A stretch of DNA of 11,868 nucleotides from a virus (taxonomy: Duplodnaviria > Heunggongvirae > Uroviricota > Caudoviricetes), in IMG/VR virus record IMGVR_UViG_3300028956_000026, positions 1-11,868 of that record; one strand, written 5' to 3'. The notes below the pieces were generated by a model. The model searched no databases, was not told the origin of the DNA, and saw only the letters and a program-made list of their open reading frames with translations. Both the position numbers and the translations under genes were made by a program. Positions 286 to 11,207 of this stretch are shown piece by piece; the first letter of the stretch is position 1; each line of letters begins with the position of its first letter.

Positions 286-338
286 GTATTCATTTCTATT
301 CACTCTACACCATATTTTTCGGCGGTACAGGTGACGGT

Positions 339-355
339 ATTACCTTAAAGGTATA
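339..355. promoter_or_regulatory. Operator-like 17-bp dyad ATTACCttaaaGGTATA upstream of int
   Basis: Member of the recurrent ATTACC-N5-GGTAAT family. Overlaps a -10-like TATACT (352-357) and a second dyad GGTATactctcATACC (351-366). Confidence 0.4.
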
Positions 356-396
356 CTCTCATACCGTCATGAAAATGGTTTCTATACGGGTGAATT

Positions 397-1647
397 GTGC
401 TTACCGATACAAAATTAAAAAACCTCAAGCCGCAGGACAAACTGTACAAGGTCTCCGATCGTGACGGGCTGTATGTAGCTGTGCTTACGTCAGGCACGGT
501 CTCGTTTCGCTACGACTACCGTATCAACGGTCGCCGCGAAACGCTGGTAATCGGGCAGTATGGGCGTGACGGTATCAGCCTGGCAGAAGCGCGAGAAGAA
601 CTGATTGCTGCAAAGAAGCTGCTTAAAGCAGGCCAGTCACCGGCTGCGGCTAAACGTGACGGTATCAAAAAGATTCGTGGTGCCGAGACGTTTGCGGTAC
701 ATACCGACAGTTATATGAAACACGTCATCCTGGCTGACAGTACCCGCGCAATGAAACAGGCGGTGATCGACCGTGACATACTTCCGGTTCTTGGCAATAA
801 AATGATGGCTGAAATTACCACATCGATGGTTCGTGATTTGTGTGACCGGATTGTCGAACGCGGTGGCCGGGCAACAGCAGTGCAGGCCAGGGAGATCATC
901 AGTAGCGTATACCGTCACGCCAATGACCGTGGTCATGGTTTGTTTAATCCTGCGGCTGACATTAAACCTTCGTCTATCGCCATATTTAAACCACGAGAGC
1001 GAACACTGACACCAGAAGAAATTGGCCTGTTCTTCCGCACGCTGGATGCCATTGGTGCTATGGGCACTATGAAAATGGCTTTAAAACTGGTGCTTATCAC
1101 TATGGTTCGTAAGGGCGAATTCACCAATGCAACGTGGGATGAAATAGATTTTAAAAAATGGACATGGACAATTCCTTCAGACCGCATGAAAGGAAGCCGG
1201 GCGCACGTTATTTACCTGCCTAAACAGGCACAGGATATATTGGTCGGGTTGCAGATGTGCGCTGGTGGAAGTGAATACCTGGTTCCTGGTCGTTACAATT
1301 TCCGGAAGCCATTATCTAATGCCGCACTGAACTCTCTGATCGACAGAACGGTGAAAATAATAAATGAAGATGGTGAGCATATTCAGGACTTCACCGTACA
1401 CGATATGCGCCGTACAGCCAGTACGTTGTTGCATGAGGCTGGTTATCCTTCAGACTGGATTGAAAAGGCTCTGGCACATGAGCAGAAAGGTGTGCGCGCC
1501 GTATATAACAAAGCGGAATACGCCAGACAGCGCGCCTACATGTTGCAGCAGTGGGCCGATATGATTGATTCTTGGATTGACGGGGAGCATACGGATCTGA
1601 TTCCGTTCTCCCCGTCGAAGTTTGAGAAGTGGATGGCGGGGGAATAA
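397..1647 (+). CDS. int: Site-specific tyrosine integrase, P4/CP4-57 type
   Basis: 416 aa, GTG start. N-terminus LTDTKLKNLKPQDKLYKVSDRDGLYVAV is typical of the P4-integrase N-terminal domain. C-terminal catalytic signature VHDMRRTASTLL ... LAHEQKGVRAVYNKAEY (HxxR and catalytic Tyr). Confidence 0.9.
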   Translation: MLTDTKLKNLKPQDKLYKVSDRDGLYVAVLTSGTVSFRYDYRINGRRETLVIGQYGRDGISLAEAREELIAAKKLLKAGQSPAAAKRDGIKKIRGAETFAVHTDSYMKHVILADSTRAMKQAVIDRDILPVLGNKMMAEITTSMVRDLCDRIVERGGRATAVQAREIISSVYRHANDRGHGLFNPAADIKPSSIAIFKPRERTLTPEEIGLFFRTLDAIGAMGTMKMALKLVLITMVRKGEFTNATWDEIDFKKWTWTIPSDRMKGSRAHVIYLPKQAQDILVGLQMCAGGSEYLVPGRYNFRKPLSNAALNSLIDRTVKIINEDGEHIQDFTVHDMRRTASTLLHEAGYPSDWIEKALAHEQKGVRAVYNKAEYARQRAYMLQQWADMIDSWIDGEHTDLIPFSPSKFEKWMAGE

Positions 1648-1650
1648 CGT

Positions 1651-1845
1651 TTAATTATTCTGCTGATTTTCTTCCATCTCGGCTTCTGCTGCCAGTGATT
1701 CAATTTTGTCTGCGAATATTGCTGACAGCGTTGCAAATTCAGCATCGGTGACAGCGGGAATTGGAACAAACCTGATCCCGCTGTGTGCAAGCATGTTTGC
1801 AGTTTCAAGGCATTTCCTTAAATCTGCTGGTGATGCCCGGTTCAT
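1651..1845 (-). CDS. Small hypothetical protein (64 aa) with an acidic C-terminus
   Basis: Its ATG (1845-1843) overlaps the TGA stop (1844-1842) of the upstream methyltransferase as ATGA. GGGAG Shine-Dalgarno about 9 nt upstream. Sequence MNRASPADLRK...AEAEMEENQQNN. The 104-aa track ORF 1651..1965 is the same frame extended into the methyltransferase gene. Confidence 0.45.
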   Translation of the reverse strand: MNRASPADLRKCLETANMLAHSGIRFVPIPAVTDAEFATLSAIFADKIESLAAEAEMEENQQNN

Positions 1846-2492
1846 GCTGCACGCTCCCGCCCCTGGTTGTCTGTTGGTGACAGCGGAGCATTGCTGAATG
1901 CATTTGTTAATCTGGCAATATCCAACGCGTATCCAGGGTGTAGTTGCACTGCCGGGTCTTCGCACTGATTACCCCAAACATCGAAGCCATGAGACGACTG
2001 GCGGGCGAACAGTTCAATGCGAGAAACATCGCCTAACAATTGCACAAGTTTTTCACGAACGACATCTGGTTTTCTTGAATGCTCAAGCCGCGGTGCGGTA
2101 AATGACTGAACGATCCCTGCATTAATGCGCGGAGGTAGTTTTCCCTTTACTGCAAACAGGCAATCTTCACTATTGGCGCGAGTCATGTGACCCATACCCA
2201 TAACCAGTTTATCTGGTTGTCGACTACCACATTTTATCCACGTGAATCCCTTCATGGTCATCAGACGGAATCCCCAGGCTTCAACAACTTTTAGTGCTTC
2301 GAGTGGTTGTGTTGGCACCCACCACATGGCCAACAGACAGTTTTCATCGGCCAAATCCCACACAGGAAGGCGGCAGATATCCATCACACTCATAACCGGA
2401 TATTTAAAACCGGCACCGCGATTACCATCTGCGGCTTTGTCCCGGTATACCCAGGGTGGATCTGCATAGATTAGTGTGTATTTCTTAGTCAT
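1842..2492 (-). CDS. MT-A70 family DNA N6-adenine methyltransferase
   Basis: 216 aa with the catalytic motif LIYADPPW near the N-terminus and downstream hydrophobic/WGF blocks typical of MT-A70. ATG at 2492. Confidence 0.8.
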   Translation of the reverse strand: MTKKYTLIYADPPWVYRDKAADGNRGAGFKYPVMSVMDICRLPVWDLADENCLLAMWWVPTQPLEALKVVEAWGFRLMTMKGFTWIKCGSRQPDKLVMGMGHMTRANSEDCLFAVKGKLPPRINAGIVQSFTAPRLEHSRKPDVVREKLVQLLGDVSRIELFARQSSHGFDVWGNQCEDPAVQLHPGYALDIARLTNAFSNAPLSPTDNQGRERAA

Positions 2493-2784
2493 AAACCACC
2501 CCGCAACATCCTATACCGCTATAGTCGCCACGGCGAAGGCCGTTACCTTTTGTGATACATTGGTCCCTGCGAACCGCGATCCTTGCACGCTCAACATCAC
2601 CAGAAGCAACATCCATACACTGAAGCCAAAGGTGGGCGGCAATGCGGAACTGCCCTTTTTTCTCTCTTTCAATCGCGCGTTTTTCGATCTCTATCGCCGC
2701 AGGAGTAACGGCAACAACCTTTGAAGGGCTGCGCATTGAAACCTTGTTCATGTGATATTTTTCAAGTCGGCTTAACTTTCTCAC
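2485..2784 (-). CDS. Hypothetical regulator, possibly PerC-family transcriptional activator
   Basis: GTG start at 2784 with GAGGG Shine-Dalgarno upstream; alternative ATG at 2751. Segment EKRAIEREKKGQFRIAAHLWLQCMDV...ERARIAVRRDQCI resembles the PerC/Pch pattern (GLWRRAA.RW...RRN.C) from memory. Overlaps the methyltransferase start by 8 nt. Confidence 0.45.
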   Translation of the reverse strand: MRKLSRLEKYHMNKVSMRSPSKVVAVTPAAIEIEKRAIEREKKGQFRIAAHLWLQCMDVASGDVERARIAVRRDQCITKGNGLRRGDYSGIGCCGVVYD

Positions 2785-2893
2785 TTAATCCAACCCTCTC
2801 TGAAAATTAATGCCAGCAGATAAAGCCATGCAGAAACAGAGGCCAGGAATAAGTACCATCCTGACCATTTGCTCCAGTGCCTTAGCAGCACAC

Positions 2894-3142
2894 TCATGCC
2901 GCGTTGCTCACGGGACGATATACACGTTGCTGAACAGGAGGTTTTTTACCCTGGAACTCTGCCGGGCTTGCTGCCTGACGTTCATCAAGCCAACGCTCAA
3001 CTTCATCACGGTTCCATGCGCAGCGTTTATCGGTGATATACCAGCGTTTAGGAAATTCCCCTGCGCGCTCCATACGGTCGATAGTGCTCCATGACAGTGG
3101 CACCACCGCCAGGAGTTCCTTCTTACCTAATGCACCTTTCAT
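2894..3142 (-). CDS. AlpA-family prophage regulator / excisionase-like HTH protein
   Basis: 82 aa. KELLAVVPLSWSTIDRMERAGEFPKRWYITDKRCAWNRDEVERWLDER fits the AlpA/Xis-type winged-HTH pattern (S-STI-R, FP, W...EV..W). GAGG Shine-Dalgarno 5-6 nt upstream of the ATG. Confidence 0.7.
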   Translation of the reverse strand: MKGALGKKELLAVVPLSWSTIDRMERAGEFPKRWYITDKRCAWNRDEVERWLDERQAASPAEFQGKKPPVQQRVYRPVSNAA

Positions 3143-3191
3143 AAATACCTCTCTTGGTTGCAGTGCGGCGCGCGTGGCGCCGCGGTGGTGG

Positions 3192-4133
3192 TTACATAGA
3201 TGTTTCGTTTAATTCTTCCCGACGAACGCTGTAAACGTCGGTGGCTTTTGCCAGCAGTTCGTCATCATCTGAAAGTTTTTGTGCAATGTATTTGTAAGCC
3301 TTATCCAGTTCGGAGACAGTGCTGTAATTCATCGCTGCGCTGGTAAAGGCCATCAGCATTTCTTCTGGATCACGGCTATCCGCTTTACGCGTTTGCTCAT
3401 CAGGCTTTTTCGCTGGTTTAGCGTTGATCAGACTGTTCATTCCCGCAGCAGTGGTCGTTTGCGGAGTAATGTCTCGCTCAACGCGCGGTGCCGTTTCCTG
3501 TAATTCGTCTGGGGTGTAGACGCCCATGATTACGTCAGGACAGTGCAGGCGAGACCAGCGTTTTGTCGCAAGGTATGCGAGTTGTTGTTTCGGATCACTG
3601 GCCCAAAGTGTGGAGTTTCTTACCTGTGCTTGAGACAGCATTAACTCAAGCACTCGAGGTTGATCCTCGCCCTTCATGGTTGCCCATACGCGAACACCGC
3701 AGCCTTCTTCGTCTTTTAGAGTCCAGCCTGGTGCGATATATGGATTGCCGTTTTTGGATGTTTTCTCAACAAACTTACCGATCACGCGTTCCCACGGCCC
3801 GAACCACTCGTAGTTGATGCGATCTTTTGTTGGCGACATCGTTGAGATAACTGCGTTTACTAATTGGGCTTCATAACCTAGCGTGCCGTTCACAACATGG
3901 GTTTTCTGAGCCACGGCAAACGGGTTCATTCCCCACTGCGCAGCCTGCATTGCCACGGCCATGCAATCAGCTGGTTTCCCGGCGAGGTGCGCCGGTACCG
4001 TTACGCGGCTTTGCGCCATTACCTCGGCGAATTTCATCAGTTGGTTCAAGCCGTCTGGGCTGAAAATAGTTGCAGCAGTTCCAGCGATTGCTGTGTCTAC
4101 TGGTGCGTTGATGTTTGCGATGTCGTTGCTCAT
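3192..4133 (-). CDS. ssDNA annealing recombinase, Bet (Red-beta)/RecT family
   Basis: Blocks AQWGMNPFAVAQKTHVV and QLAYLATKRWSRL...ERDITP parallel lambda Bet (ANQYGLNPW..., ...ERDITP). Start placed at ATG 4133, which overlaps the exonuclease stop as ATGA and has an AGGA Shine-Dalgarno; the track start at 4160 is GTG without a Shine-Dalgarno. Confidence 0.8.
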   Translation of the reverse strand: MSNDIANINAPVDTAIAGTAATIFSPDGLNQLMKFAEVMAQSRVTVPAHLAGKPADCMAVAMQAAQWGMNPFAVAQKTHVVNGTLGYEAQLVNAVISTMSPTKDRINYEWFGPWERVIGKFVEKTSKNGNPYIAPGWTLKDEEGCGVRVWATMKGEDQPRVLELMLSQAQVRNSTLWASDPKQQLAYLATKRWSRLHCPDVIMGVYTPDELQETAPRVERDITPQTTTAAGMNSLINAKPAKKPDEQTRKADSRDPEEMLMAFTSAAMNYSTVSELDKAYKYIAQKLSDDDELLAKATDVYSVRREELNETSM

Positions 4134-4951
4134 ATGTACATATCCTGTTTGCGTGCCCACTCAGGGCGTTTAATGATTTCCACACCGCCCCATTCATCAT
4201 TGATGCGGCATTCGTGATAGGTATTCAGATCCCGGCGGAACAGAGCGTGCCCGGCATCGACATCCTGCGCATCCAGCTCGAACACGCGTACCGGATACCG
4301 ACCACAATCAATGCTTTCGCTCACGGCAAGAAAGAAAAAACCATGCGGCTGACCAGTAACCCTCATTGCGCCTTCGCGGTACATTGCGTCCTGCACGTGG
4401 TAGCGGAATTCCTCGATGTGGCGTGCAAAACGGTCCATATCTGCAACCTTTTTCACGTCGACGATCACGTTGTGCTCGTTCAGCCATTTGTCTGGACGAA
4501 TTCGGCACAACTCCCCCGTCTCTTCATCGTTCCAGTACATTGATGCTTCGCAGTAACCAGGGGCTTCCAGCATCCAGCGTGCCGCCGGGTGAGCCATTGC
4601 GCTATCACGCATCAGCTCCAGTTTCCGCCACTGCTCGGCATCAAGTACCGTAATCCCCATATCCGCCACATCACGAAGAAATGCCTCTTCGTCAGCTTTA
4701 CCTTGTTTCGTCCGACGATCGAATTTCGGTGAAACAATGAAGCGTTTGTCGAACTCTCCAGGCTCCAGAAGCAGACAGTGCAATGCGGTTCCCATATCCA
4801 GTGCAGACTTTTTCTCTTCGTCTTCTGGTGCTGCCTGAACCCATTTAAGAAGCGCCGGATTCTTGGCAACCATGTCCAGTTGCGACTTACTCACGCCGTC
4901 ACCGGCGTGGTAGTCCTCATTGCTGATGTCGAAATAAATTCCCGGTTTCAT
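4130..4951 (-). CDS. RecE-like 5'-3' exonuclease (exodeoxyribonuclease VIII-like, PD-(D/E)XK)
   Basis: 273 aa. N-terminus MKPGIYFDISNEDYHAGDGVSKSQL resembles the RecE C-terminal nuclease domain family. Sits immediately upstream of the annealing protein (exo then annealase order, as in RecET modules). Confidence 0.7.
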   Translation of the reverse strand: MKPGIYFDISNEDYHAGDGVSKSQLDMVAKNPALLKWVQAAPEDEEKKSALDMGTALHCLLLEPGEFDKRFIVSPKFDRRTKQGKADEEAFLRDVADMGITVLDAEQWRKLELMRDSAMAHPAARWMLEAPGYCEASMYWNDEETGELCRIRPDKWLNEHNVIVDVKKVADMDRFARHIEEFRYHVQDAMYREGAMRVTGQPHGFFFLAVSESIDCGRYPVRVFELDAQDVDAGHALFRRDLNTYHECRINDEWGGVEIIKRPEWARKQDMYI

Positions 4952-5247
4952 GCCGCTTCCCTCTGCCCATCAATCCGATCCGCCAGATCCCAGCGGGCGA
5001 TAATTGCCATTGCCTCTCGCCGGTAGGCATCCATCAGTTCTTCGAACTCAGGGCTGTCTTTAGCAGCCTCCAGTACTTCCTGGCGAACTCCTTTGCCTGT
5101 TACAGCGTCAAAAGTTGAGGCCAGTTGATGAAGCCGGATGCTATCGATCAGTTCAACTTGTCGGTCATATAGCTGTTCTGACAGGCGGTAGTCCTTGTCG
5201 AATGCCAGCATGATTTTTTGAAGATTTTTCTGCTGATTAACGTTCAT
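4948..5247 (-). CDS. Small protein, possibly Gam-like host nuclease (RecBCD) inhibitor
   Basis: 99 aa from ATG 5247 with a GAGGTGGG Shine-Dalgarno; the track start at 5253 is GTG. Stop overlaps the exonuclease ATG as ATGA. C-terminal SPEFEELMDAYRREAMAIIARWDLADRID weakly resembles lambda GamS ([27 protein letters not shown]); size and position match gam. Confidence 0.45.
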   Translation of the reverse strand: MNVNQQKNLQKIMLAFDKDYRLSEQLYDRQVELIDSIRLHQLASTFDAVTGKGVRQEVLEAAKDSPEFEELMDAYRREAMAIIARWDLADRIDGQREAA

Positions 5248-5254
5248 ACCCACC

Positions 5255-6289
5255 TCAATATTTGATATACGCGTCCTGCACTTTGCCGCCAGCGATAGCC
5301 AACATTGCTTTCTGCGCGAATTCTTCGTGAATGCCTTGGGCTATCAGATCTGCGATTACTCTGCGGTTAACGGTACGGCGATGCTCTTTATCTGCAGCTC
5401 GGCGCGCTTCTTCGTCGGCGATACGCTTCTGTTCGTCAAGGCGGGCTTTTTCTGCCGCCTCTTGGCGTCGGCGTTCCTCGGCAACGGCTTCTTCTTTTTC
5501 GCGTCGTGCACGCTGCTCTGCTTCAATTCGCTGACGTTCTGCTACTTCAGCACGTGCTTTTTCTTCCGCCGCCAGGCGTGCCGCAGCCTCAATTTCAGCT
5601 TTCGCTTTTTGTTCAGCTTCGAGCCTGGCCTGTTCAGCAGCTTCCCGTCGGATATTCTCTTCTCGCTCAATGCGCGCTTTTTCCTCCGCTTCTTTGCGAA
5701 GTCGCTCCAGCTCAGCGGCTTCATGCTCGCGTTTTTGAGCTACTGCGAGTGATTCTTCCAGTTTCTGGATGGTTGAATCCTTGGCTACTCCAGCTTCTGC
5801 TGCGTACTCCTGCCAACTTTCATCAAGTGCTACTGATTTAGCCTCTTGAATTCGTTCCTGAATATCAGATGATGGCAAGTAGTTTCCGGAGAGATCGATC
5901 ACGTCAGCTAGTGCTCGCAAATTTGTCAGGCGTTGTTGCAGTGCTTCAGTGCGTAATTTCTCAGCATTTTCCCACTCGGTGAGTGGGCGGCGTACTTCAT
6001 CACGAAGCCGATCGCATTCGGTTACGAAGCGTCGTAACTCTGCTTCAACTACTTTCGGCTGTTCTTTCAGGCGTTTCAGATAATCACGTCCTGGTTTTTC
6101 TACCGCTGTTTTACTTCTTGAAACCTTCGCAGCCAGAGATGCAATGCGCTTTCTGCCTTTGTCTGTGCTAATGTCAGGCACTTCATTAACACCTTCACGG
6201 ATCTGCTCGAGAAACTTTTCCAGCCCTTTTTCAACGTAAATTCTTGGTGCCATGTCTGGTGTGATTTCGATGATTGATAATTCACTCAT
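5255..6289 (-). CDS. Phage coiled-coil protein with a TolA-like low-complexity E/A/K/R-rich central region
   Basis: 344 aa. Globular N-terminal part (MSELSIIEITPDMAPRIYVEKGLEKFLEQIREG...) followed by about 120 aa of EAEQKAKAEIEAAARLAAEEKARAEV-type repeats. Several antisense shadow ORFs on + are artefacts of this repeat. Confidence 0.7.
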   Translation of the reverse strand: MSELSIIEITPDMAPRIYVEKGLEKFLEQIREGVNEVPDISTDKGRKRIASLAAKVSRSKTAVEKPGRDYLKRLKEQPKVVEAELRRFVTECDRLRDEVRRPLTEWENAEKLRTEALQQRLTNLRALADVIDLSGNYLPSSDIQERIQEAKSVALDESWQEYAAEAGVAKDSTIQKLEESLAVAQKREHEAAELERLRKEAEEKARIEREENIRREAAEQARLEAEQKAKAEIEAAARLAAEEKARAEVAERQRIEAEQRARREKEEAVAEERRRQEAAEKARLDEQKRIADEEARRAADKEHRRTVNRRVIADLIAQGIHEEFAQKAMLAIAGGKVQDAYIKY

Positions 6290-6297
6290 TTGCTAAC

Positions 6298-6447
6298 CTA
6301 CTCCCATATCTCGTTATCGTTTGCCACATCGCGAGCTTCTTTGCTGATGAAAGCCCACTTGATGCCTTCCTGTAAGGTGCGGAACTTCCAGCTCATGAAT
6401 CCGCATGCAGTAACGCAGTACCAACCGTTGATGATTTTCCACTGCAT
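6298..6447 (-). CDS. Small ORF (49 aa), first gene of the leftward early operon; possible Kil-like small membrane-active protein
   Basis: Not in the ORF track (under 60 aa). ATG at 6447 preceded by GAGGT 8 nt upstream; stop TAG at 6300-6298, 8 nt before the next gene start. Translation MQWKIINGWYCVTACGFMSWKFRTLQEGIKWAFISKEARDVANDNEIWE has a hydrophobic/aromatic core. Confidence 0.4.
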   Translation of the reverse strand: MQWKIINGWYCVTACGFMSWKFRTLQEGIKWAFISKEARDVANDNEIWE

Positions 6448-6465
6448 AACTTGTTACCTCGGTCT

Positions 6466-6482
6466 GTTACCGTTGAGGTAAT
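6466..6482. promoter_or_regulatory. Operator-like dyad GTTACCgttgaGGTAAT (oL-proximal)
   Basis: 17-bp dyad overlapping the -10/start region of the predicted leftward promoter. An extra TTACC half-site lies at 6454-6458. Confidence 0.45.
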
Positions 6483-6509
6483 AATTATGCTTATTTGGTT
6501 TGGTGTCAA
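6481..6509 (-). promoter_or_regulatory. pL-like sigma-70 promoter (leftward early operon)
   Basis: On the minus strand a perfect -35 TTGACA (plus 6504-6509), 17-bp spacer, -10 AATTAT. Lies between the repressor terminator and the first leftward ORF and is flanked by two operator dyads. Confidence 0.45.
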
Positions 6510-6527
6510 TAGATATGAGTTAAAAAA

Positions 6528-6544
6528 ATTACCCGTAAGGTAAT
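6528..6544. promoter_or_regulatory. Operator-like perfect dyad ATTACCcgtaaGGTAAT (oL-distal)
   Basis: Perfect 6+5+6 palindrome about 19 bp upstream of the -35 of the pL-like promoter. Confidence 0.45.
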
Positions 6545-6552
6545 CTATCTGG

Positions 6553-6580
6553 CAATAAAAAAGCCGCCATGAGGCGGCTT
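6553..6580 (-). terminator. Rho-independent terminator after the repressor gene (tImm-like)
   Basis: 8-bp stem AAGCCGCC (6561-6568) / GGCGGCTT (6573-6580), loop ATGA. On the minus strand it is followed by TTTTATT. Lies 20 bp downstream of the repressor stop. Confidence 0.6.
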
Positions 6581-6600
6581 ACTTGCTGAAAACTATAGTT

Positions 6601-7185
6601 TTATTGTTTGCTTTTTTCGTTCTGGTTGATGACAAATTCAATGTAACTTTCGATCTTTGCTTTCTCTGTTTCAGGTAACAATGCGTAGCGCGAGCGGTCA
6701 TAGTTGATAGTTGCAGGGTCGTGCGGGTGAATCAGTAGTTCATATCCGTGACGCCCGAATGCAGATGCAACATTCTCCAGGGTGGAAATGGAAACGCTGA
6801 CCTCATTGTTTAACAGGCGGCTGATTGTCACCTGGGCTACGCCGGATGCGCGGTGAAGTTTTCCCTGTGTTGAAAGGTCGCGGCTTTCGCTCATCCAGCG
6901 TTCCAGGTTGTGAGCCGCCAGCTGGCCAATGTCGCTTGGGCCGACAGGCTGAAAACCTTCCTGAGAAAGCGAGCGATCGATATCAAGCCAGTTACGGGGT
7001 TTATTGGCGGCAGCTTCAATTTTTCGCGCAACCTGATCGCCGATAACCTTCTTACCAAGAGCCCAGCGGTTTACCAGATTTGCCTGAGTTCCAAGTTTTT
7101 CGGCCATCCGCGTCTGAACACCATTGAATTCACGGTCGATCAAGTCGTTGAGATTTTGCCTGCGGACGTCCTGGATACTTTTCAT
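6601..7185 (-). CDS. CI-like prophage repressor with two HTH domains and no LexA-type S24 peptidase domain
   Basis: 194 aa. N-terminal HTH (QTRMAEKLGTQANLVNRWALGKK) and a second HTH-like segment (GVAQVTISRLLNNEVSVSISTLENVASAFG). No Ser/Lys autocleavage motif. Divergent from the Cro-like gene, no Shine-Dalgarno before the ATG (pRM-style). Operators flank it. Confidence 0.7.
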   Translation of the reverse strand: MKSIQDVRRQNLNDLIDREFNGVQTRMAEKLGTQANLVNRWALGKKVIGDQVARKIEAAANKPRNWLDIDRSLSQEGFQPVGPSDIGQLAAHNLERWMSESRDLSTQGKLHRASGVAQVTISRLLNNEVSVSISTLENVASAFGRHGYELLIHPHDPATINYDRSRYALLPETEKAKIESYIEFVINQNEKSKQ

Positions 7186-7239
7186 TTTCTGGAAAATCGC
7201 CTCATATATGAATCAGTAGATGATTCAATTTAAAGCAAT

Positions 7240-7256
7240 ATTACCCAACAGGTAAA
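7240..7256. promoter_or_regulatory. Operator-like dyad ATTACCcaacaGGTAAA (oR region)
   Basis: In the divergent intergenic region between repressor and cro-like genes. Its reverse complement TTTACCtgttgGGTAAT is nearly identical to the copy at 9571-9587. Confidence 0.45.
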
Positions 7257-7285
7257 TGCACCTCATGGGTAACTATCCTTGATTT

Positions 7286-7314
7286 TTGTTACCTTATAGG
7301 TGAATATTTATTAT
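7286..7314 (+). promoter_or_regulatory. pR-like sigma-70 promoter with overlapping operator dyad GTTACCttataGGTGAA (7288-7304)
   Basis: -35 TTGTTA (7286-7291), 17-bp spacer, -10 TATTAT (7309-7314), 25 bp upstream of the cro-like ATG. The dyad overlaps the -35 and spacer. Confidence 0.5.
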
Positions 7315-7339
7315 CTGAAATAAATATCAGGCAATAGCT

Positions 7340-7570
7340 ATGAGCGATAACGGACATTTCGATTTCAAAAAGCACTGGCTTGCACTTACTCCGGATGAGC
7401 GTGAAGCCTTCGCACAGGAAGCCGGAACGACGAGTCACTATATCCAGACTCACTTAACAGGTAAGCGCAAAATGCCAGGTAAGGTATTGATGGATGGGCT
7501 TTTTAAAGCCTGTAAATCAAGACAATGGCTGCGCTCAAAAGCAGAACTGGCATACTTCTTCTACTCATGA
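7340..7570 (+). CDS. Cro-like small HTH regulator
   Basis: 76 aa, divergent from the repressor and first gene of the rightward operon. Putative HTH around LTPDEREAFAQEAGTTSHYIQTHL. Confidence 0.65.
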   Translation: MSDNGHFDFKKHWLALTPDEREAFAQEAGTTSHYIQTHLTGKRKMPGKVLMDGLFKACKSRQWLRSKAELAYFFYS

Positions 7571-7592
7571 TATCCAGCCACAACCCTCTGTA

Positions 7593-7614
7593 GACCGCCA
7601 TCCGGCGGTCTTTT
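7593..7614 (+). terminator. Rho-independent terminator downstream of the cro-like gene (tR1-like)
   Basis: Stem GACCGCC (7593-7599) / GGCGGTC (7604-7610), loop ATCC, followed by TTTT. Confidence 0.6.
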
Positions 7615-7624
7615 CATATCTATT

Positions 7625-7641
7625 CGTACCTCAAAGGTAAT
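7625..7641. promoter_or_regulatory. Operator-like dyad CGTACCtcaaaGGTAAT
   Basis: Degenerate member of the ATTACC-N5-GGTAAT family, about 80 bp upstream of the zinc-finger ORF. Confidence 0.35.
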
Positions 7642-7720
7642 AAAAAACCAAATATGGTTGATCTTTTTTTTGTGTCAGCACAAAATAACCGTAATCCCAA
7701 TACTAATAACAGGGCTTACC

Positions 7721-7921
7721 ATGGAAATCATTACACGTATTGATGCCGCAAAGCGCGGACTTAAACGCTACTACACCGGAAAAACATGTAAGCACGGACA
7801 TGACAGTGAACGCTGGGTTTACAACGGACACTGTGTTGAGTGCACCATGGAATCAAACCGTCGTATCAGGGCAGAGATTAAGCAGATCATGATTAATTCC
7901 TCCCCACAACATTCAAGCTGA
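7721..7921 (+). CDS. Small zinc-finger-like protein (66 aa) at the cII position
   Basis: Start ATG 7721 with AGGG Shine-Dalgarno; the track ORF begins at an upstream TTG (7658). Sequence contains C-x-H-x-H ... H-C-x-x-C (GKTCKHGHDSERWVYNGHCVEC), suggesting a zinc ribbon. Confidence 0.55.
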   Translation: MEIITRIDAAKRGLKRYYTGKTCKHGHDSERWVYNGHCVECTMESNRRIRAEIKQIMINSSPQHSS

Positions 7922-7936
7922 TAGCGGAGATTAATC

Positions 7937-8752
7937 ATGAGCAGACATGCAACAGATTGGGCCTGGGAGACAGATCCAGGTAGCTCGTCATTAAAGCTCA
8001 TACTGCTCTCGATGGCTGACAGAGCCGATGAATATAACCTCTGCTACCCCAGCATAGAACGCCTCGTTAAAGACACTTGCCTGAATAAAAAAACCGTGCA
8101 GGCCGGGCTTATATCGCTCATGAAAATGGGGCTTATTTCAGATACCGGAGAGAGAAAGGGAGCGACGAAAAGAGTGCGGGTTTTCTCTCTTAATATAACC
8201 AAAAACGGGAACATTAAAGGCAACCGGGAAGGGGGTAATGAACCCGAAAACGGTAATGTTACCGAAAACGGGAATATACACAAAAACGGGATGTTGAATG
8301 ATCCCAAAAACGGGATGTTGAATGATCCCAAAAACGGGATCCAGAACCAGTCATATAACCAGTCATTTAACCAAGAGAGGGAGAGCAGGACAAAAAGCGG
8401 GGATTCTGTGCCTCATGACCCCGGCGCAAACAACGCCGTGATGAATAACTTTGTTCCTCCTGGTGGGCCAGGGCAATTAGGCAAATTTGTCATGCATGAA
8501 CAATGGCAACCATCAGATGACTTTCTTCGGAAAAGCTCATTGCAGGGGATCTACCTGGACAGTCTGCCAACGGCACAGGAACTTGCAGAGTTCAGAATTT
8601 ACTGGATGGCTGAGGGTAAGGCATACCATCAGGCGCAGTGGGAGCAGAAGCTGGCAAGGCGGCTGCAGATTAGCAGACAGAAGCAATCAACATTACCTGA
8701 TAACAACGTTCCGCACTGGAACAGCCCTGAAGCATGGGAGGATTTCTTGTGA
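7937..8752 (+). CDS. Replication initiator, O-like (winged-helix N-terminus, repeat-encoded linker, DnaT-like C-terminus)
   Basis: 271 aa with GGAGA Shine-Dalgarno. Central N/G-rich linker is encoded by DNA iterons. Positioned immediately before the P-like gene, with the stop overlapping its start. Confidence 0.7.
   Translation: MSRHATDWAWETDPGSSSLKLILLSMADRADEYNLCYPSIERLVKDTCLNKKTVQAGLISLMKMGLISDTGERKGATKRVRVFSLNITKNGNIKGNREGGNEPENGNVTENGNIHKNGMLNDPKNGMLNDPKNGIQNQSYNQSFNQERESRTKSGDSVPHDPGANNAVMNNFVPPGGPGQLGKFVMHEQWQPSDDFLRKSSLQGIYLDSLPTAQELAEFRIYWMAEGKAYHQAQWEQKLARRLQISRQKQSTLPDNNVPHWNSPEAWEDFL
8198..8342. repeat. Origin-type iterons inside the O-like gene
   Basis: Six to seven copies of CC(C/G)AAAAACGG(G/T)A; the last three form a 24-bp tandem unit CCCAAAAACGGGATGTTGAATGAT (8279-8342). 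Followed by an AT-rich ACCAGTCAT(A/T)TAACCA duplication (8355-8375). Confidence 0.7.
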
Positions 8753-9534
8753 ACAACGTTTTTACCGCAATACAAAACCGTGACGGAGAAGCCCTTTCTC
8801 GCATGTCAGGTTATGAGCATCAGTACGTCAACAATGACAACGTAGTGAACATGTCAGCAGAGAGGCTTGTTGATGCCCTTTTCAAACAGTTGAAACAACT
8901 GTTTCCGGCGGCAGTGGTAACCAACCTGAAGACGCCAGAGCAGGAAGTTGCTGCAAAACAGCAGTGGATTGCTGCGTTTGCCGAAGGGGGGATCCGAACC
9001 CGTGAACAGGTTTCTGCTGGTATGCGCCACGCCCGCGCCAGTGATTCTCCGTTCTGGCCGTCGCCAGGGCAATTCATCAAGTGGTGCAAAGACAGCAAGA
9101 TGGTTCTTGGCGTCACCATTGACGATGTGATGACGGAGTTTCACCGGTACAGCAAGGAAAAAAGTTTATATCCTGGTGGTCCCGAAAGATTCCCGTGGCG
9201 GCATCCGGTTATGTACTGGGTCGTATGTGATACCCGCCGTGCAATGTATCAGCGCCAGCTTAGCGAGATAGAGGTTGAGAAACACGCGCGCAGGCTGCTC
9301 GATGATTGGGCGAAAAAGGTGGCTTCCGGACAGCAGATACCCGATCCGGTGATCAGCATACAGGCAAAGCCAGAACCCATGAGTACGCCTCCGGACACAG
9401 GGAGAGACGTTTACCATCCACCAGGGCGAAGTTTCGGGTGCATGCCTAACGCCGCCACCCTTGGGGGAATAACACCGGCGCAGTGGCTGATGGAGGAATA
9501 CAGGCGGGGAAAGGCGGCAGGATTTATCAAGTAA
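8749..9534 (+). CDS. Replication protein P-like helicase (DnaB) loader
   Basis: Clear similarity to lambda P (PFWPSPGQFIKWCKD versus PFLPSPGQFVAWCRE; REQVSAGMRHAR versus MEQVNAGMRVAR). Start placed at GTG 8749, which overlaps the O-like stop as GTGA and has a GGGAGG Shine-Dalgarno; the track start is ATG 8734 without one. Confidence 0.85.
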   Translation: MNNVFTAIQNRDGEALSRMSGYEHQYVNNDNVVNMSAERLVDALFKQLKQLFPAAVVTNLKTPEQEVAAKQQWIAAFAEGGIRTREQVSAGMRHARASDSPFWPSPGQFIKWCKDSKMVLGVTIDDVMTEFHRYSKEKSLYPGGPERFPWRHPVMYWVVCDTRRAMYQRQLSEIEVEKHARRLLDDWAKKVASGQQIPDPVISIQAKPEPMSTPPDTGRDVYHPPGRSFGCMPNAATLGGITPAQWLMEEYRRGKAAGFIK

Positions 9535-9537
9535 TAC

Positions 9538-9560
9538 CAGCGCGATAGCGCATTTTTTTA
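9538..9560 (+). terminator. Weak terminator-like hairpin plus T-tract after the P-like gene
   Basis: Short stem GCGC/GCGC with loop GATA, followed by ATTTTTTT. The stem is only 4 bp, so this is weak. Confidence 0.25.
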
Positions 9561-9570
9561 CGCCTTGATA

Positions 9571-9587
9571 ATTACCTGTTGGGTAAT
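9571..9587. promoter_or_regulatory. Operator-like perfect dyad ATTACCtgttgGGTAAT
   Basis: Perfect palindromic arms, 65 bp upstream of the DUF1064-like gene. Confidence 0.45.
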
Positions 9588-9633
9588 AAAATATTCTAAA
9601 CTCTATTGATTTCGTGTCTTATGTGGTTTTTAA

Positions 9634-9650
9634 TTACCTTAGAGGTAAAT
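9634..9650. promoter_or_regulatory. Operator-like dyad ATTACCttagaGGTAAA overlapping the RBS of the DUF1064-like gene
   Basis: Ends 1 bp before the ATG at 9652; the GGTAA half doubles as the GAGGT Shine-Dalgarno. Confidence 0.4.
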
Positions 9651-9651
9651 C

Positions 9652-9996
9652 ATGAGAAAACAGATACAGGCTCTTGGTCGACTCAAAACAGGCCAGATGA
9701 ACAAAACAGAATCTGCGTATTGCCAGCACCTTGAGCTGCGTAAACGTGCAGGGGAAATCGCCTGGTATCGATTCGAGGGTATCAAGCTGCGGTTAGCTGA
9801 CAACACGTTCTATACGCCCGATTTTGCTGTGATGCTCGCCACCGGCGAGATGGAACTACACGAAGTGAAAGGTTTCTGGACCGATGACGCCAGAGTGAAA
9901 ACCAAAGTCGCCGCAGATCAGTATCCGTTCCGAATCATCGGGGTAACGGTTAAGCCAAAGAAAGCAGGTGGTGGCTGGAACATCGAAGAGTTCTGA
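9652..9996 (+). CDS. DUF1064-like phage protein (nuclease-fold family)
   Basis: 114 aa. Pattern KTESAYCQHLELRKRAGEI...YTPDFAV...EVKGFWTDDARVK matches my recollection of DUF1064. Good Shine-Dalgarno. Confidence 0.6.
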   Translation: MRKQIQALGRLKTGQMNKTESAYCQHLELRKRAGEIAWYRFEGIKLRLADNTFYTPDFAVMLATGEMELHEVKGFWTDDARVKTKVAADQYPFRIIGVTVKPKKAGGGWNIEEF

Positions 9997-10057: not shown

Positions 10058-10717
10058 ATGGACGGTAATATCAAAGGGTTAGTTTCCGCCGGGCATGAGA
10101 TGGCTTCGGAACTGAAAGCTGAATGTGGTGCCGTTGATATGCGCAGTGTGGCAAAGCTGATCAGCGATTTGGCAACGCAACTGGAAGTGCAACTGGTGCG
10201 TGCTAATGCGCTGGCCGAAGACCACCAGAAAGCGATTGAATCAATTAAGCAGGCTGATGCGGCTGTTAAGTTGGCACACGAGAAGTTTTCGGCGCTGGCA
10301 GCGGAGAATGCGGGGCTAAAGGCGATATGTGATGACCGTCGCAGGTTCATCATGAATGGGGTGCAGATGGGTTATATCAAGGTTCCAGCAGCGGAAACAG
10401 ATCCAGACCTTGAGACAATTCGCATTGCTATATCACCACAAAAGCCCATTCCAGCCACCGATGCTTTCCTGACTGAAATTCGTGCGGAAGCACGCAACGA
10501 GGGGATTAACTATACCGCCAGCCGTCTTGCTGCTGCGTTCAATCACGGATTTATCAATAAGTCTTTGCGTGAAGTTTTCGACGTTACACGCATGATTTTG
10601 TCAGCGAAAGAAGAGTTGGCTAATGAAGCGCATCCGATTGATGGCCTGTCTGGTGAATATGCGGAGAAATCCCTTGAAGAATGGGCGGAACAAATTCGCA
10701 AAGGAAGCAGCCAGTGA
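10058..10717 (+). CDS. Hypothetical phage protein with coiled-coil N-terminal half (ea-region type, possibly Ead/Ea22-like)
   Basis: 219 aa with GAGGGT Shine-Dalgarno. Stop TGA (10715-10717) overlaps the next GTG start. Confidence 0.6.
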   Translation: MDGNIKGLVSAGHEMASELKAECGAVDMRSVAKLISDLATQLEVQLVRANALAEDHQKAIESIKQADAAVKLAHEKFSALAAENAGLKAICDDRRRFIMNGVQMGYIKVPAAETDPDLETIRIAISPQKPIPATDAFLTEIRAEARNEGINYTASRLAAAFNHGFINKSLREVFDVTRMILSAKEELANEAHPIDGLSGEYAEKSLEEWAEQIRKGSSQ

Positions 10718-11207
10718 GCGAAATTAATTACCAGGCACTGCGTGAGGCGGCGGAACGTGCAATTCCAGCAATGGNNNNNNNNNNNNNNNNNNNNNNNNNN
10801 NNNATGATGATTTGTTAAGTGAACAGGAACTTAAAGATTACGGTGTGGATATTGATGCGCTCAACGCCTTCAAATTTCTGGCCGGACCAGAAACCGTGCT
10901 GGCACTACTGGATGAACGGGAAAGGAACCAGCAATACATCAAATCACGCGACCAGGAGAACGAGGATATTGCGCTAACGGTAGGGAAGTTGCGCGTTGAG
11001 CTTGAGGCAGAAAAACAGCGGGCAAAGGATCTGTTTATGGAAAATGCTCGGCTTAAGTCAGGTATAGCCGGTCTGATACACCTCGGTATTCGATATGCAG
11101 ATGTTGATGTCATGAAAATTGCTGGAGATGCCCAGCTTTCTACCCCATACACTGACAGCATCATAAACAGCATTGCAACAGGCATTCGCATCAACGGAGG
11201 TGAGTAG
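10714..11207 (+). CDS. Ead/Ea22-like family protein (tentative), interrupted by the N-gap
   Basis: GTG 10714 with AAGGAAG Shine-Dalgarno; N-terminus VSEINYQALREAAERAIPAM then Ns. Open frame resumes after the gap (..DDLLSEQELKDYG...GIRINGGE, stop 11205-11207). Frame continuity across the gap cannot be established. Confidence 0.45.
10775..10803. other. Assembly gap (29 N)
   Basis: Run of N characters directly visible in the sequence. Confidence 1.

What the first reader, a model, noticed from the sequence alone, without database searches (positions are those of the whole stretch)
339..9650. Recurrent 17-bp dyad ATTACC-N5-GGTAAT at eight intergenic sites, including upstream of int and a distal DUF1064 gene
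Copies at 339-355, 6466-6482, 6528-6544, 7240-7256, 7288-7304, 7625-7641, 9571-9587 and 9634-9650. All are intergenic, several overlap predicted -35/-10 elements, and three are perfect palindromes. Two pairs share the central spacer as well (7240/9571 tgttg; 6466/7625 tcaac-like). This looks like one HTH-dimer operator family controlling not only pL and pR but also the int promoter and a promoter 2 kb into the right arm, a wider regulon than the classical lambda switch. The binding protein (CI-like repressor, Cro-like, or AlpA-like) is not determinable from sequence.
Basis: seen in the sequence. Interest (0 to 1): 0.7.

Follow-up and report, generated by a model that had tools for sequence, protein, structure and literature searches.

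The report
Prophage repressor operators at every promoter
The repeated 17-bp dyad is real and is almost certainly the operator set of the repressor of a phiV10/epsilon15-type prophage sitting next to guaA; the same sites are already annotated as repressor-binding sites in phage epsilon15, so this is a well-supported but largely known design.

Summary
TTACC-N5-GGTAA occurs 8 times in the window at one mismatch or less, against 0.18 expected. All copies are intergenic. One coordinate is off by one (9633-9649). A ninth, weaker copy (7257-7273) was missed; it makes the repressor/cro region a three-operator cluster.

The window is the guaA-proximal part of a phiV10/epsilon15-like (Uetakevirus) prophage. 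In five genomes whose repressors are only 43-78% identical, the dyads sit at the same intergenic positions. Arm columns are 92% invariant, spacers 20%, and other intergenic columns 44%.

The adjacent 194-aa repressor is a full-length homologue of the Salmonella phage SPC32H repressor (PDB 5D50). That protein is described as binding palindromic sites as a tetramer and being released by an antirepressor.

Complete relatives carry 13-15 copies each, and the intergenic ones sit in front of the successive transcription units. However, the epsilon15 GenBank record already marks seven such sites as repressor-binding, including the one equivalent to the DUF1064 site.

The site upstream of int is the least certain. 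It is nested in a hairpin and among putative integrase sites.

The parts
339..355 (.). Operator-like dyad ATTACCTTAAAGGTATA upstream of int; right arm degenerate and containing a -10-like TATACT
   Evidence: The arms are invariant and the spacer variable in 5 genomes. However, the whole region is 87% conserved. The dyad is also nested in a hairpin at 331-369 (-16.1 kcal/mol) that the epsilon15 record labels as Int and RNase III sites.
397..1647 (+). Tyrosine integrase (P4-type) gene
   Evidence: Pfam Arm-DNA-bind_3, Phage_int_M and Phage_integrase; phiV10 p31.
6466..6482 (.). OL proximal operator, abutting or overlapping the -10 of the leftward early promoter
6481..6509 (-). pL: TTGACA-17-AATTAT, lying between the two OL operators
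   Evidence: Promoter scan scores 10 of 12. The CTATTGAC module is invariant in 5 genomes.
6528..6544 (.). OL distal operator with perfect arms, 62 bp from the proximal one
   Evidence: The 62-bp spacing is kept in nearly all of 80 IMG/VR contigs.
6561..6580 (-). Terminator after the repressor gene
   Evidence: annotated in phiV10.
6601..7185 (-). Repressor (Rep), 194 aa, two HTH-like domains, no S24 peptidase domain
   Evidence: PDB 5D50 (SPC32H repressor) at E = 3.5e-42 over residues 1-190; Pfam HTH_3 and weak YdaS-type HTH. N-terminal domain 53% identical to SPC32H, with NLVNRW shared by the four Uetakevirus Reps compared.
7240..7256 (.). OR-a operator. Its GGTAAA arm, read on the minus strand as TTTACC, is a candidate -35 of the repressor promoter
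   Evidence: The promoter assignment is inferred.
7257..7273 (.).
   Evidence: At this position SPC32H, epsilon15 and BUCT711 have TTACC-N5-GGTAA with at most an outer-base change.
7279..7307 (+). pR candidate: TTGATT-17-GAATAT
   Evidence: TTGATTTTT is invariant in 5 genomes. The scan tool offers an overlapping alternative at 7286-7314.
7288..7304 (.). OR-c operator inside the pR spacer and overlapping its -10
7340..7570 (+). Cro-like 76-aa protein
   Evidence: phrog_35 'transcriptional repressor' at 8.7e-13; 77% identical to the SPC32H orthologue.
7592..7611 (+). Terminator after the cro-like gene
   Evidence: annotated in phiV10.
7625..7641 (.). Operator (left arm degenerate, right arm invariant) upstream of the promoter for the replication genes
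7658..7686 (+). Promoter candidate TTGATC-17-CAAAAT for the 66-aa gene and the replication genes
   Evidence: GGTTGATCTTTTTT and AAAAT are invariant in 5 genomes. The assignment is by eye; the scan tool did not call it.
7685..7701 (.). Decayed proximal operator ATAACCGTAATCCCAAT, 60 bp from 7625 (left arm 5 of 6, right arm 3 of 6)
   Evidence: Read from the sequence; the left half is ATTACC in SPC32H and epsilon15. Weak.
9541..9560 (+). Short terminator-like hairpin plus T-run after the replication P gene
   Evidence: Invariant GCGC...GCGCATTTTTTT; annotated as a terminator in phiV10.
9571..9587 (.). Distal operator of the DUF1064 promoter region, perfect arms
   Evidence: It equals epsilon15 35906-35922, which is annotated as repressor-binding.
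9565..9634 (+). Promoter region with two candidates: TTGATA-16-TAAAAT (9565-9592) and TTGATT-17-TTTAAT (9606-9634). The second is positionally homologous to pL
   Evidence: for the first. CTATTGA is invariant for the second. Which one fires is unknown.
9633..9649 (.). Proximal operator, 62 bp from the distal one, overlapping the Shine-Dalgarno sequence of the DUF1064 gene
9652..9996 (+). DUF1064 gene, first gene of the third rightward unit
   Evidence: Pfam DUF1064; phrog_190 'Holliday junction resolvase'.

Best explanation
The dyads are the operators of the prophage's own repressor, Rep (6601-7185, minus strand).

Proposed mechanism:
1. Rep's N-terminal HTH domains read the half-site TTACC.
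2. Each 17-bp dyad takes a pair of these domains. The protein works as a tetramer, so it can hold two dyads at once.
3. The dyads overlap or bracket the sigma-70 promoters of each transcription unit:
   - a pair 62 bp apart (about six helical turns) sandwiches pL;
   - an equivalent pair sandwiches the promoter of the DUF1064 unit;
   - a three-site cluster lies between rep and the cro-like gene;
   - one full site plus a decayed one sit at the promoter after the cro terminator;
   - one weak site overlaps a -10-like element in front of int.
4. In the lysogen, Rep therefore switches off every lytic unit and int directly.
5. Induction is expected to work as in SPC32H, by an antirepressor encoded outside this window that takes the tetramer apart.

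What is shown here: the motif, its enrichment, its positions, its conservation and the homology of Rep.
What is inferred: binding itself, tetramer bridging of paired sites, and which promoters fire.
For: - **Enrichment:** 8 sites against 0.18 expected in the window. The neighbouring 50 kb of host DNA has 0 perfect and 2 one-mismatch hits. In a complete sister prophage, 14 of 15 hits are inside the prophage.
- **Position:** the sites overlap or flank promoter hexamers (alignments).
- **Conservation:** at nine orthologous sites in E. coli, Enterobacter, Salmonella (two) and Klebsiella phages, arm columns are invariant in 83 of 90 cases. Spacer columns are invariant in 9 of 45, and other intergenic columns in 291 of 662.
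- **Spacing:** the 62-63 bp spacing of the pairs at pL and at the DUF1064/ruvC promoter is kept in all five genomes. It is also kept in nearly all of 80 IMG/VR contigs.
- **The binder:** Rep matches the SPC32H repressor structure 5D50 over its full length (E = 3.5e-42). SPC32H Rep is described as a tetramer that binds palindromic sites and is released by the antirepressor Ant.
- **Prior annotation:** the epsilon15 record marks seven such sites 'protein_bind: repressor; lysogeny'.
- **Independent link to the N-terminal domain:** Pseudomonas phage repressors share only this domain (39-41% identity) and have an S24-type C-terminus. Their genes are flanked by TTACC-N4-GGTAA: 4 sites against 0.03 expected, conserved in 23 contigs.
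Against: - No binding data exist for this prophage. The primary SPC32H and epsilon15 papers could not be read here, so the tetramer/operator details rest on secondary citations and on a GenBank annotation.
- The Cro-like protein is even better conserved than Rep (77% against 43%). It could bind the same sites, so comparative data do not separate the two.
- The best-matching OR site (7240) overlaps the candidate -35 of the repressor's own promoter, while the site over pR is the most degenerate. This is the reverse of lambda, and I cannot explain it.
- The int site sits in an 87%-conserved region. It is nested in a stable hairpin and among putative Int arm sites.
- No convincing -35 was found for int.
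Confidence: 0.8

Rival explanations
1. The sites are chiefly read by the 76-aa Cro-like protein (7340-7570), or shared between it and Rep as in lambda. Part of the set would then serve the lytic decision rather than maintenance of lysogeny.
For: The protein falls in a PHROG of transcriptional repressors. It is encoded divergently from rep across the three-operator cluster. It is 77% identical to its SPC32H counterpart, more conserved than Rep. The Pseudomonas phages with the related N4 dyad also carry a phrog_35 protein at the same position.
Against: The Pseudomonas and E. coli Cro-like proteins show no pairwise similarity, whereas the repressor N-terminal domains are 39-41% identical and the half-site is unchanged. 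The epsilon15 annotators assign the sites to the repressor. Sharing of operators would not contradict the main explanation.
Confidence: 0.35
2. The copy upstream of int (339-355) is not a repressor operator. It would be a by-product of other signals in the attP arm: integrase arm-type sites (GTGACGGTAT and its inverted copy) or an RNA hairpin processed by RNase III.
For: The epsilon15 record labels the flanking 10-mer as an integrase site and the stretch as an RNase III site. The 331-369 hairpin folds at -16.1 kcal/mol, z = -3.9. The right arm departs from consensus in all five genomes, and the whole region is 87% conserved, so conservation says little.
Against: The left arm is a perfect ATTACC at exactly 5-nt spacing. 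The only substitutions inside the 17-mer in five genomes fall in the spacer. The right arm contains TATACT (TATAAT in epsilon15), which would let a bound repressor occlude a -10. A site can serve both functions.
Confidence: 0.35
3. The dyads act as RNA hairpins (terminators, processing or stability elements) rather than as DNA-binding sites.
For: The strongest copies fold as small hairpins of -5.5 to -6.9 kcal/mol, better than shuffles.
Against: - The arms are conserved as sequence: 92% of columns are invariant and no compensatory changes are seen, whereas an RNA stem would tolerate paired changes.
- The hairpins are weak; 7240 folds at only -3.3 kcal/mol, z = -1.3.
- Most copies lack a following T-run.
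- No Rfam family matches the window.
Confidence: 0.04
4. The motif is the site of a host transcription factor that the prophage has recruited.
For: None beyond the general possibility.
Against: 50 kb of host DNA carries no perfect copy, and its two one-mismatch copies lie inside genes. The motif travels with the phage across four host genera. A variant of it follows a homologous repressor domain into Pseudomonas phages.
Confidence: 0.03

Closest known systems
Repressor-binding sites annotated in Salmonella phage epsilon15 (GenBank AY150271) and the Rep/Ant switch of Salmonella phage SPC32H (PDB 5D50, 5D4Z)
   Same: - Same 17-bp dyad ATTACC-N5-GGTAAT at the same intergenic positions: left operator pair, repressor/cro region, and ahead of the gene after the replication genes.
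- Same gene order.
- Rep is homologous over its full length.
- Genome-wide spread of sites.
   Different: - The window's Rep is only 43% identical overall, and 53% in the N-terminal domain.
- The left region has two operators here, against three in epsilon15, SPC32H and BUCT711.
- The gene behind the third rightward promoter is DUF1064 here and in SPC32H, but a RuvC-type nuclease in epsilon15 and Tyrion.
- The epsilon15 record does not annotate the int site, the repressor/cro cluster or the second site of the 62-bp pair.
- The phiV10 record annotates no operators at all.
Lambda CI/Cro switch (OR1-3, OL1-3)
   Same: Divergent repressor and cro-like genes sit across a three-operator cluster. There is a second operator set at the leftward early promoter. 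The operators are 17-bp dyads overlapping -35 and -10 elements.
   Different: - The repressor has no S24 autocleavage domain.
- It is reported as a tetramer controlled by an antirepressor.
- Operators also sit at downstream rightward units, at int and, in complete relatives, at late units.
- Each rightward unit has its own terminator and promoter, instead of one antiterminated transcript.
- The apparent order of site quality at OR is reversed.
Mycobacteriophage L5/L1 gp71 multi-site repression ('stoperators')
   Same: One repressor has many sites spread over the whole phage genome, a point the L1 literature contrasts with lambdoid phages (abstract of PMC1934351, listed).
   Different: The L5/L1 sites are asymmetric. 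From my own knowledge, they act by blocking elongation in an orientation-dependent way. The sites here are symmetric dyads placed at or next to promoters.

Membership tests
epsilon15/SPC32H-type Rep operator set (Uetakevirus immunity system) | 17-bp dyad ATTACC-N5-GGTAAT, enriched over chance | tested here: met
   8 sites against 0.18 expected. The same consensus is found in epsilon15, SPC32H, phiV10, Tyrion and BUCT711.
epsilon15/SPC32H-type Rep operator set (Uetakevirus immunity system) | Sites at the positions annotated as repressor-binding in epsilon15 (left operator region; ahead of the gene following the replication genes) | tested here: met
   Alignments A1 and A3 place window 6466/6528 and 9571 opposite epsilon15 32554-32570, 32616-32632 and 35906-35922.
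epsilon15/SPC32H-type Rep operator set (Uetakevirus immunity system) | Adjacent gene for a Rep-type repressor (N-terminal HTH, middle HTH-like domain, C-terminal tetramerisation/Ant-binding domain; no S24 peptidase) | tested here: met
   5D50 at E = 3.5e-42 over residues 1-190. Pfam finds HTH domains only.
epsilon15/SPC32H-type Rep operator set (Uetakevirus immunity system) | Small antirepressor (Ant) next to the tailspike gene | not tested
   This lies outside the window. phiV10 p24 is annotated as similar to epsilon15 gp19, which occupies the same position as SPC32H ant. I did not compare the sequences or look for a LexA box.
epsilon15/SPC32H-type Rep operator set (Uetakevirus immunity system) | Physical binding of Rep to the dyads and repression of the adjacent promoters | not testable with these tools
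   Needs EMSA or footprinting, ChIP or reporter assays. The primary papers are not held.
Lambda-type CI/Cro switch | Three operators between divergent repressor and cro genes | tested here: met
   7240, 7257 and 7288, conserved in five genomes.
Lambda-type CI/Cro switch | Repressor with a RecA-stimulated S24 self-cleavage domain | tested here: not met
   No Peptidase_S24 match. Homology is to the antirepressor-controlled SPC32H Rep.
Lambda-type CI/Cro switch | A single early rightward transcript extended by antitermination | tested here: inconclusive
   Terminator-plus-promoter-plus-operator modules follow the cro-like gene and the P gene, which argues for separate units. No transcript data are available.
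L5-type stoperators | Asymmetric, orientation-dependent sites inside transcribed regions | tested here: not met
   The sites are symmetric dyads at or beside promoter hexamers.

The most novel reading that the evidence does not exclude
Two linked readings are not excluded.

(a) The conserved module 'operator, about 20 bp, -35, 17 bp, -10, operator', with arms exactly 62 bp apart, is a clamp. One Rep tetramer bridges both dyads and encloses the promoter. The module has been copied to several transcription units, so a single protein silences the whole genome without a lambda-style cascade.

(b) The TTACC-reading N-terminal domain is a portable DNA-reading head. It is fused in Uetakeviruses to an antirepressor-controlled tetramerisation module (5-bp spacer), and in Pseudomonas phages to a self-cleaving S24 module (4-bp spacer).
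Probability: 0.35. Interest if true: 0.5.

Novelty: new member of a known kind. Interest (0 to 1): 0.27.

Why it matters
- **Prevalence and use:** 55 of 5,426 complete E. coli genomes hold at least 80% of this window, so the prophage type recurs. phiV10 is a phage of E. coli O157:H7, and two O157 typing phages carry the same immunity region.
- **Operator map:** knowing the full operator set gives a ready map of the phage's transcription units. It also gives a set of Rep-controlled promoters.
- **Cross-repression:** repressors only 43% identical appear to share one operator code. This predicts cross-repression between Salmonella, Klebsiella, Enterobacter and E. coli members of the genus, while their divergent C-terminal halves may keep induction signals separate.

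None of this overturns current understanding. It extends an annotation already made for epsilon15.

Tried and rejected
- **Primary literature:** the epsilon15 genome paper (PMC2698709) and the two SPC32H papers (PMC4983836, J Virol 2013) are not held. A full-text search for the motif words found nothing relevant. The vB_EcoP_ZX5 paper studies a repressor 99.5% identical to this one but defines no operator sequence.
- **RNA explanation:** no Rfam match, weak hairpins and no compensatory changes. Rejected for the set as a whole and kept only as a rival for the int site.
- **Host-factor explanation:** rejected on host background.
- **Separating Rep from Cro by comparative data:** the Pseudomonas relatives carry both protein types, so this is only suggestive.
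- **Distant Rep relatives:** the first viral-contig scan returned only contigs with an identical N-terminal domain. These were useful for showing retention of sites and spacing, but not for covariation.
- **Missing files:** several fetched loci never appeared as files for scripting, so population-level column statistics on the 80 contigs were not computed.
- **int promoter:** I could not assign a convincing -35 for int, nor decide between the two promoter candidates ahead of the DUF1064 gene.

Full report
**What the window is.** Bases 4-204 encode the C-terminus of GMP synthase (guaA). After them comes the attachment core reported for phage vB_EcoP_ZX5 (ATTGAGTGGGAATGATT, 191-207). The rest is the integrase-proximal and early part of a prophage. 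The rep/cro region (6250-7750) is about 97% identical to Escherichia phages phiv142-3, phiV10, vB_EcoP_ZX5 and others of the genus Uetakevirus, whose type member is Salmonella phage epsilon15. Gene order:
- int (397-1647, +);
- a leftward early operon with a methylase, PerC-like and AlpA-like regulators, RecT, an exonuclease and small ORFs;
- the repressor (6601-7185, -);
- a Cro-like gene (7340-7570, +);
- a 66-aa gene, a DnaT/O-like gene and a lambda-P-like gene;
- a DUF1064 gene (9652-9996) and ead/Ea22-like genes.

**The observation.** All eight copies exist. ATTACC-N5-GGTAAT at up to two mismatches gives 7 sites against 0.34 expected. The five-base arms TTACC-N5-GGTAA at up to one mismatch give all 8 against 0.18 expected, and no shuffle reaches either count.
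- The last copy is at 9633-9649, one base left of the stated position.
- Two copies have perfect six-base arms and five have perfect five-base arms, so 'three perfect palindromes' is imprecise.
- The remark about shared spacers is correct.
- All copies lie between ORFs. By my rough count, such space makes up under a tenth of the window.
- A ninth copy was missed: 7257-7273 (TGCACCTCATGGGTAAC), directly abutting 7240-7256.
- The 50 kb of E. coli chromosome upstream of guaA has no perfect copy and two one-mismatch copies, both inside genes.
- In a complete sister prophage with its host flank, 14 of 15 hits are inside the prophage.

**Anatomy.**
- *Leftward early promoter.* The scan finds TTGACA-17-AATTAT (6509-6481, minus strand). 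The proximal operator abuts its -10, and the distal operator lies upstream of its -35, 62 bp away centre to centre.
- *DUF1064 region.* The same layout recurs here. A short terminator (9541-9560) is followed by a distal operator and then the invariant CTATTGA that holds a -35. A TTTAAT -10 candidate and the proximal operator follow, again 62 bp from the distal one. The proximal operator also overlaps the ribosome-binding site. A second promoter candidate (TTGATA-16-TAAAAT, 9565-9592) has the distal operator as its spacer. I cannot tell which one fires.
- *After the cro-like gene.* Its terminator (7592-7611) is followed by a third copy of the module. This has a degenerate distal operator (7625), TTGATC-17-CAAAAT, and a decayed proximal operator (7685-7701).
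- *Between rep and the cro-like gene.* There are three operators spaced 17 and 31 bp apart. The third lies inside the spacer of the conserved pR candidate TTGATT-17-GAATAT. On the other strand, the arm of 7240 reads TTTACC. With the invariant TTTAAATT it makes a candidate repressor promoter. This assignment is inferred.

**Comparative evidence.** I aligned the five intergenic regions from the window with four phages: Enterobacter phage Tyrion, Salmonella phages SPC32H and epsilon15, and Klebsiella phage BUCT711. Their repressors are 78%, 43%, 43% and 44-45% identical to the window's.
- At the nine sites, 83 of 90 arm columns are invariant, against 9 of 45 spacer columns and 291 of 662 other intergenic columns.
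- The 62-63 bp spacing of the two operator pairs holds in all five genomes.
- It also holds in nearly all of 80 IMG/VR contigs with the same repressor N-terminal domain, although the distance between the pairs and the repressor gene varies.
- This pattern (sequence-specific arms, free spacer, fixed spacing) is what a protein-binding dyad predicts. An RNA stem would not give it.

**Who binds.** The repressor matches the full-length crystal structure of the SPC32H repressor (5D50, E = 3.5e-42, residues 1-190) and has no S24 peptidase domain. Secondary sources say that SPC32H Rep binds DNA as a tetramer. Its DNA-binding pairs for palindromic sites come from different dimers, one tetramer suffices for repression, and the tetrameric antirepressor Ant breaks it up. 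The N-terminal domain is the best-conserved part (53% against 37% for the rest), and NLVNRW is shared by the four Uetakevirus Reps compared.

An independent link to this domain comes from Pseudomonas phage PseuP_224. Its repressor shares only the N-terminal domain (39-41%) and has an S24-type C-terminus. Its gene is flanked by four copies of TTACC-N4-GGTAA against 0.03 expected. Twenty-three related viral contigs, with domain identity down to 42%, keep that dyad just upstream of the gene.

The Cro-like protein belongs to a PHROG of repressors and may share the sites. A same-PHROG protein accompanies the Pseudomonas repressors too, though without pairwise similarity. The comparative data therefore favour Rep but do not exclude Cro.

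**Extent of the regulon.** Complete relatives carry 13-15 copies each at one mismatch or less (SPC32H 18, several of them inside genes). Apart from those in the window, they lie ahead of the small terminase gene, the portal operon, the antirepressor/tailspike pair and the lysis cassette.

It is not new, however. The epsilon15 GenBank record marks seven of these sites as 'protein_bind, repressor, lysogeny'. They include the one equivalent to window 9571 and three ahead of late genes. That record does not mark the int site, the rep/cro cluster or the second member of the 62-bp pair. The phiV10 record marks no operators.

**The int site.** 339-355 has a perfect left arm and a right arm, GGTATA, that departs from consensus in all five genomes. 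The right arm contains TATACT (TATAAT in epsilon15), a good -10. Within the 17-mer, only spacer positions vary. However:
- the whole region is 87% conserved;
- the dyad is nested in a hairpin at 331-369 (-16.1 kcal/mol, z = -3.9);
- the epsilon15 record labels the flanks as integrase and RNase III sites;
- I found no credible -35.

I rate it a probable weak operator (about 0.55-0.6), possibly with a second role.

**Unexplained.** The operator that best matches consensus in the rep/cro cluster overlaps the candidate -35 of the repressor promoter. The one over pR is the most degenerate. This is the reverse of lambda. Either my promoter assignment is wrong, or cooperative binding by the tetramer overrides single-site quality.

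**Verdict.** The binder is identifiable by homology as an SPC32H-type Rep. The system is a further member of the epsilon15/SPC32H immunity type rather than something new. The conserved 62-bp promoter-sandwich module, and the reuse of the TTACC-reading domain with a different spacer in Pseudomonas phages, are the only points I could not find already recorded.

Noticed in passing
L009 2922-2974 and 3797-3836 (Pseudomonas phage PseuP_224); L090-L112: A Pseudomonas phage cI with an S24-type C-terminus shares only its N-terminal domain with the window's repressor (39-41% identity). Its gene is flanked by four TTACC-N4-GGTAA dyads (expected 0.03). Twenty-three related viral contigs keep the dyad upstream of the gene. 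The half-site is the same but the spacer is one base shorter.
   Followed up: partly
window 8202-8339: Six copies of AAAACGG(G/T)A, including a perfect 24-bp tandem repeat at 8281-8340, lie inside the DnaT/O-like replication gene. This is iteron-like and may be the phage replication origin, as in lambda O.
   Followed up: partly
window 7646-7659: A palindrome AACCAnATAnGGTT is conserved in five genomes. It immediately precedes and overlaps the -35 TTGATC of the promoter after the cro terminator. It may be a site for another regulator.
   Followed up: no
window 331-369: The inverted repeat TGACGGTAT / ATACCGTCA encloses the int-upstream dyad. As RNA it folds at -16.1 kcal/mol (z = -3.9). The epsilon15 record calls the 10-mer an integrase-binding site and the stretch an RNase III site.
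   Followed up: partly
window 9652-9996, versus L002 35987-36451 and L005 37345-37809: Behind the same conserved terminator/operator/promoter module, the first gene is DUF1064 in this prophage, SPC32H and BUCT711. In epsilon15 and Tyrion it is a RuvC-type resolvase. PHROGs groups DUF1064 with Holliday-junction resolvases, so this looks like a replacement by an analogous function.
   Followed up: partly
window 10775-10803: A run of 29 N (assembly gap or masked stretch) lies in the coding region just after the 10058-10717 ORF (the region PGAP calls ead/Ea22-like in MINF_2E).
   Followed up: no
window 6451-6484: An extra half-site GTTACC (6453-6458) lies next to the proximal left operator. It pairs with that operator's right arm in a 13-pair hairpin listed by the terminator scan. 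Relatives epsilon15, SPC32H and BUCT711 instead have a full third operator just before the first leftward gene.
   Followed up: partly
window 7240-7304: Site quality in the rep/cro cluster is the reverse of lambda. The near-perfect operator overlaps the candidate repressor promoter, and the most degenerate one overlaps pR. This holds in all five genomes.
   Followed up: no
L005 34257-34290 (Tyrion, distal left operator): Tyrion carries an 11-bp insertion that duplicates the left arm (ATTACCTGACAATTACCCCACAGGTAAT) and leaves one intact dyad.
   Followed up: no
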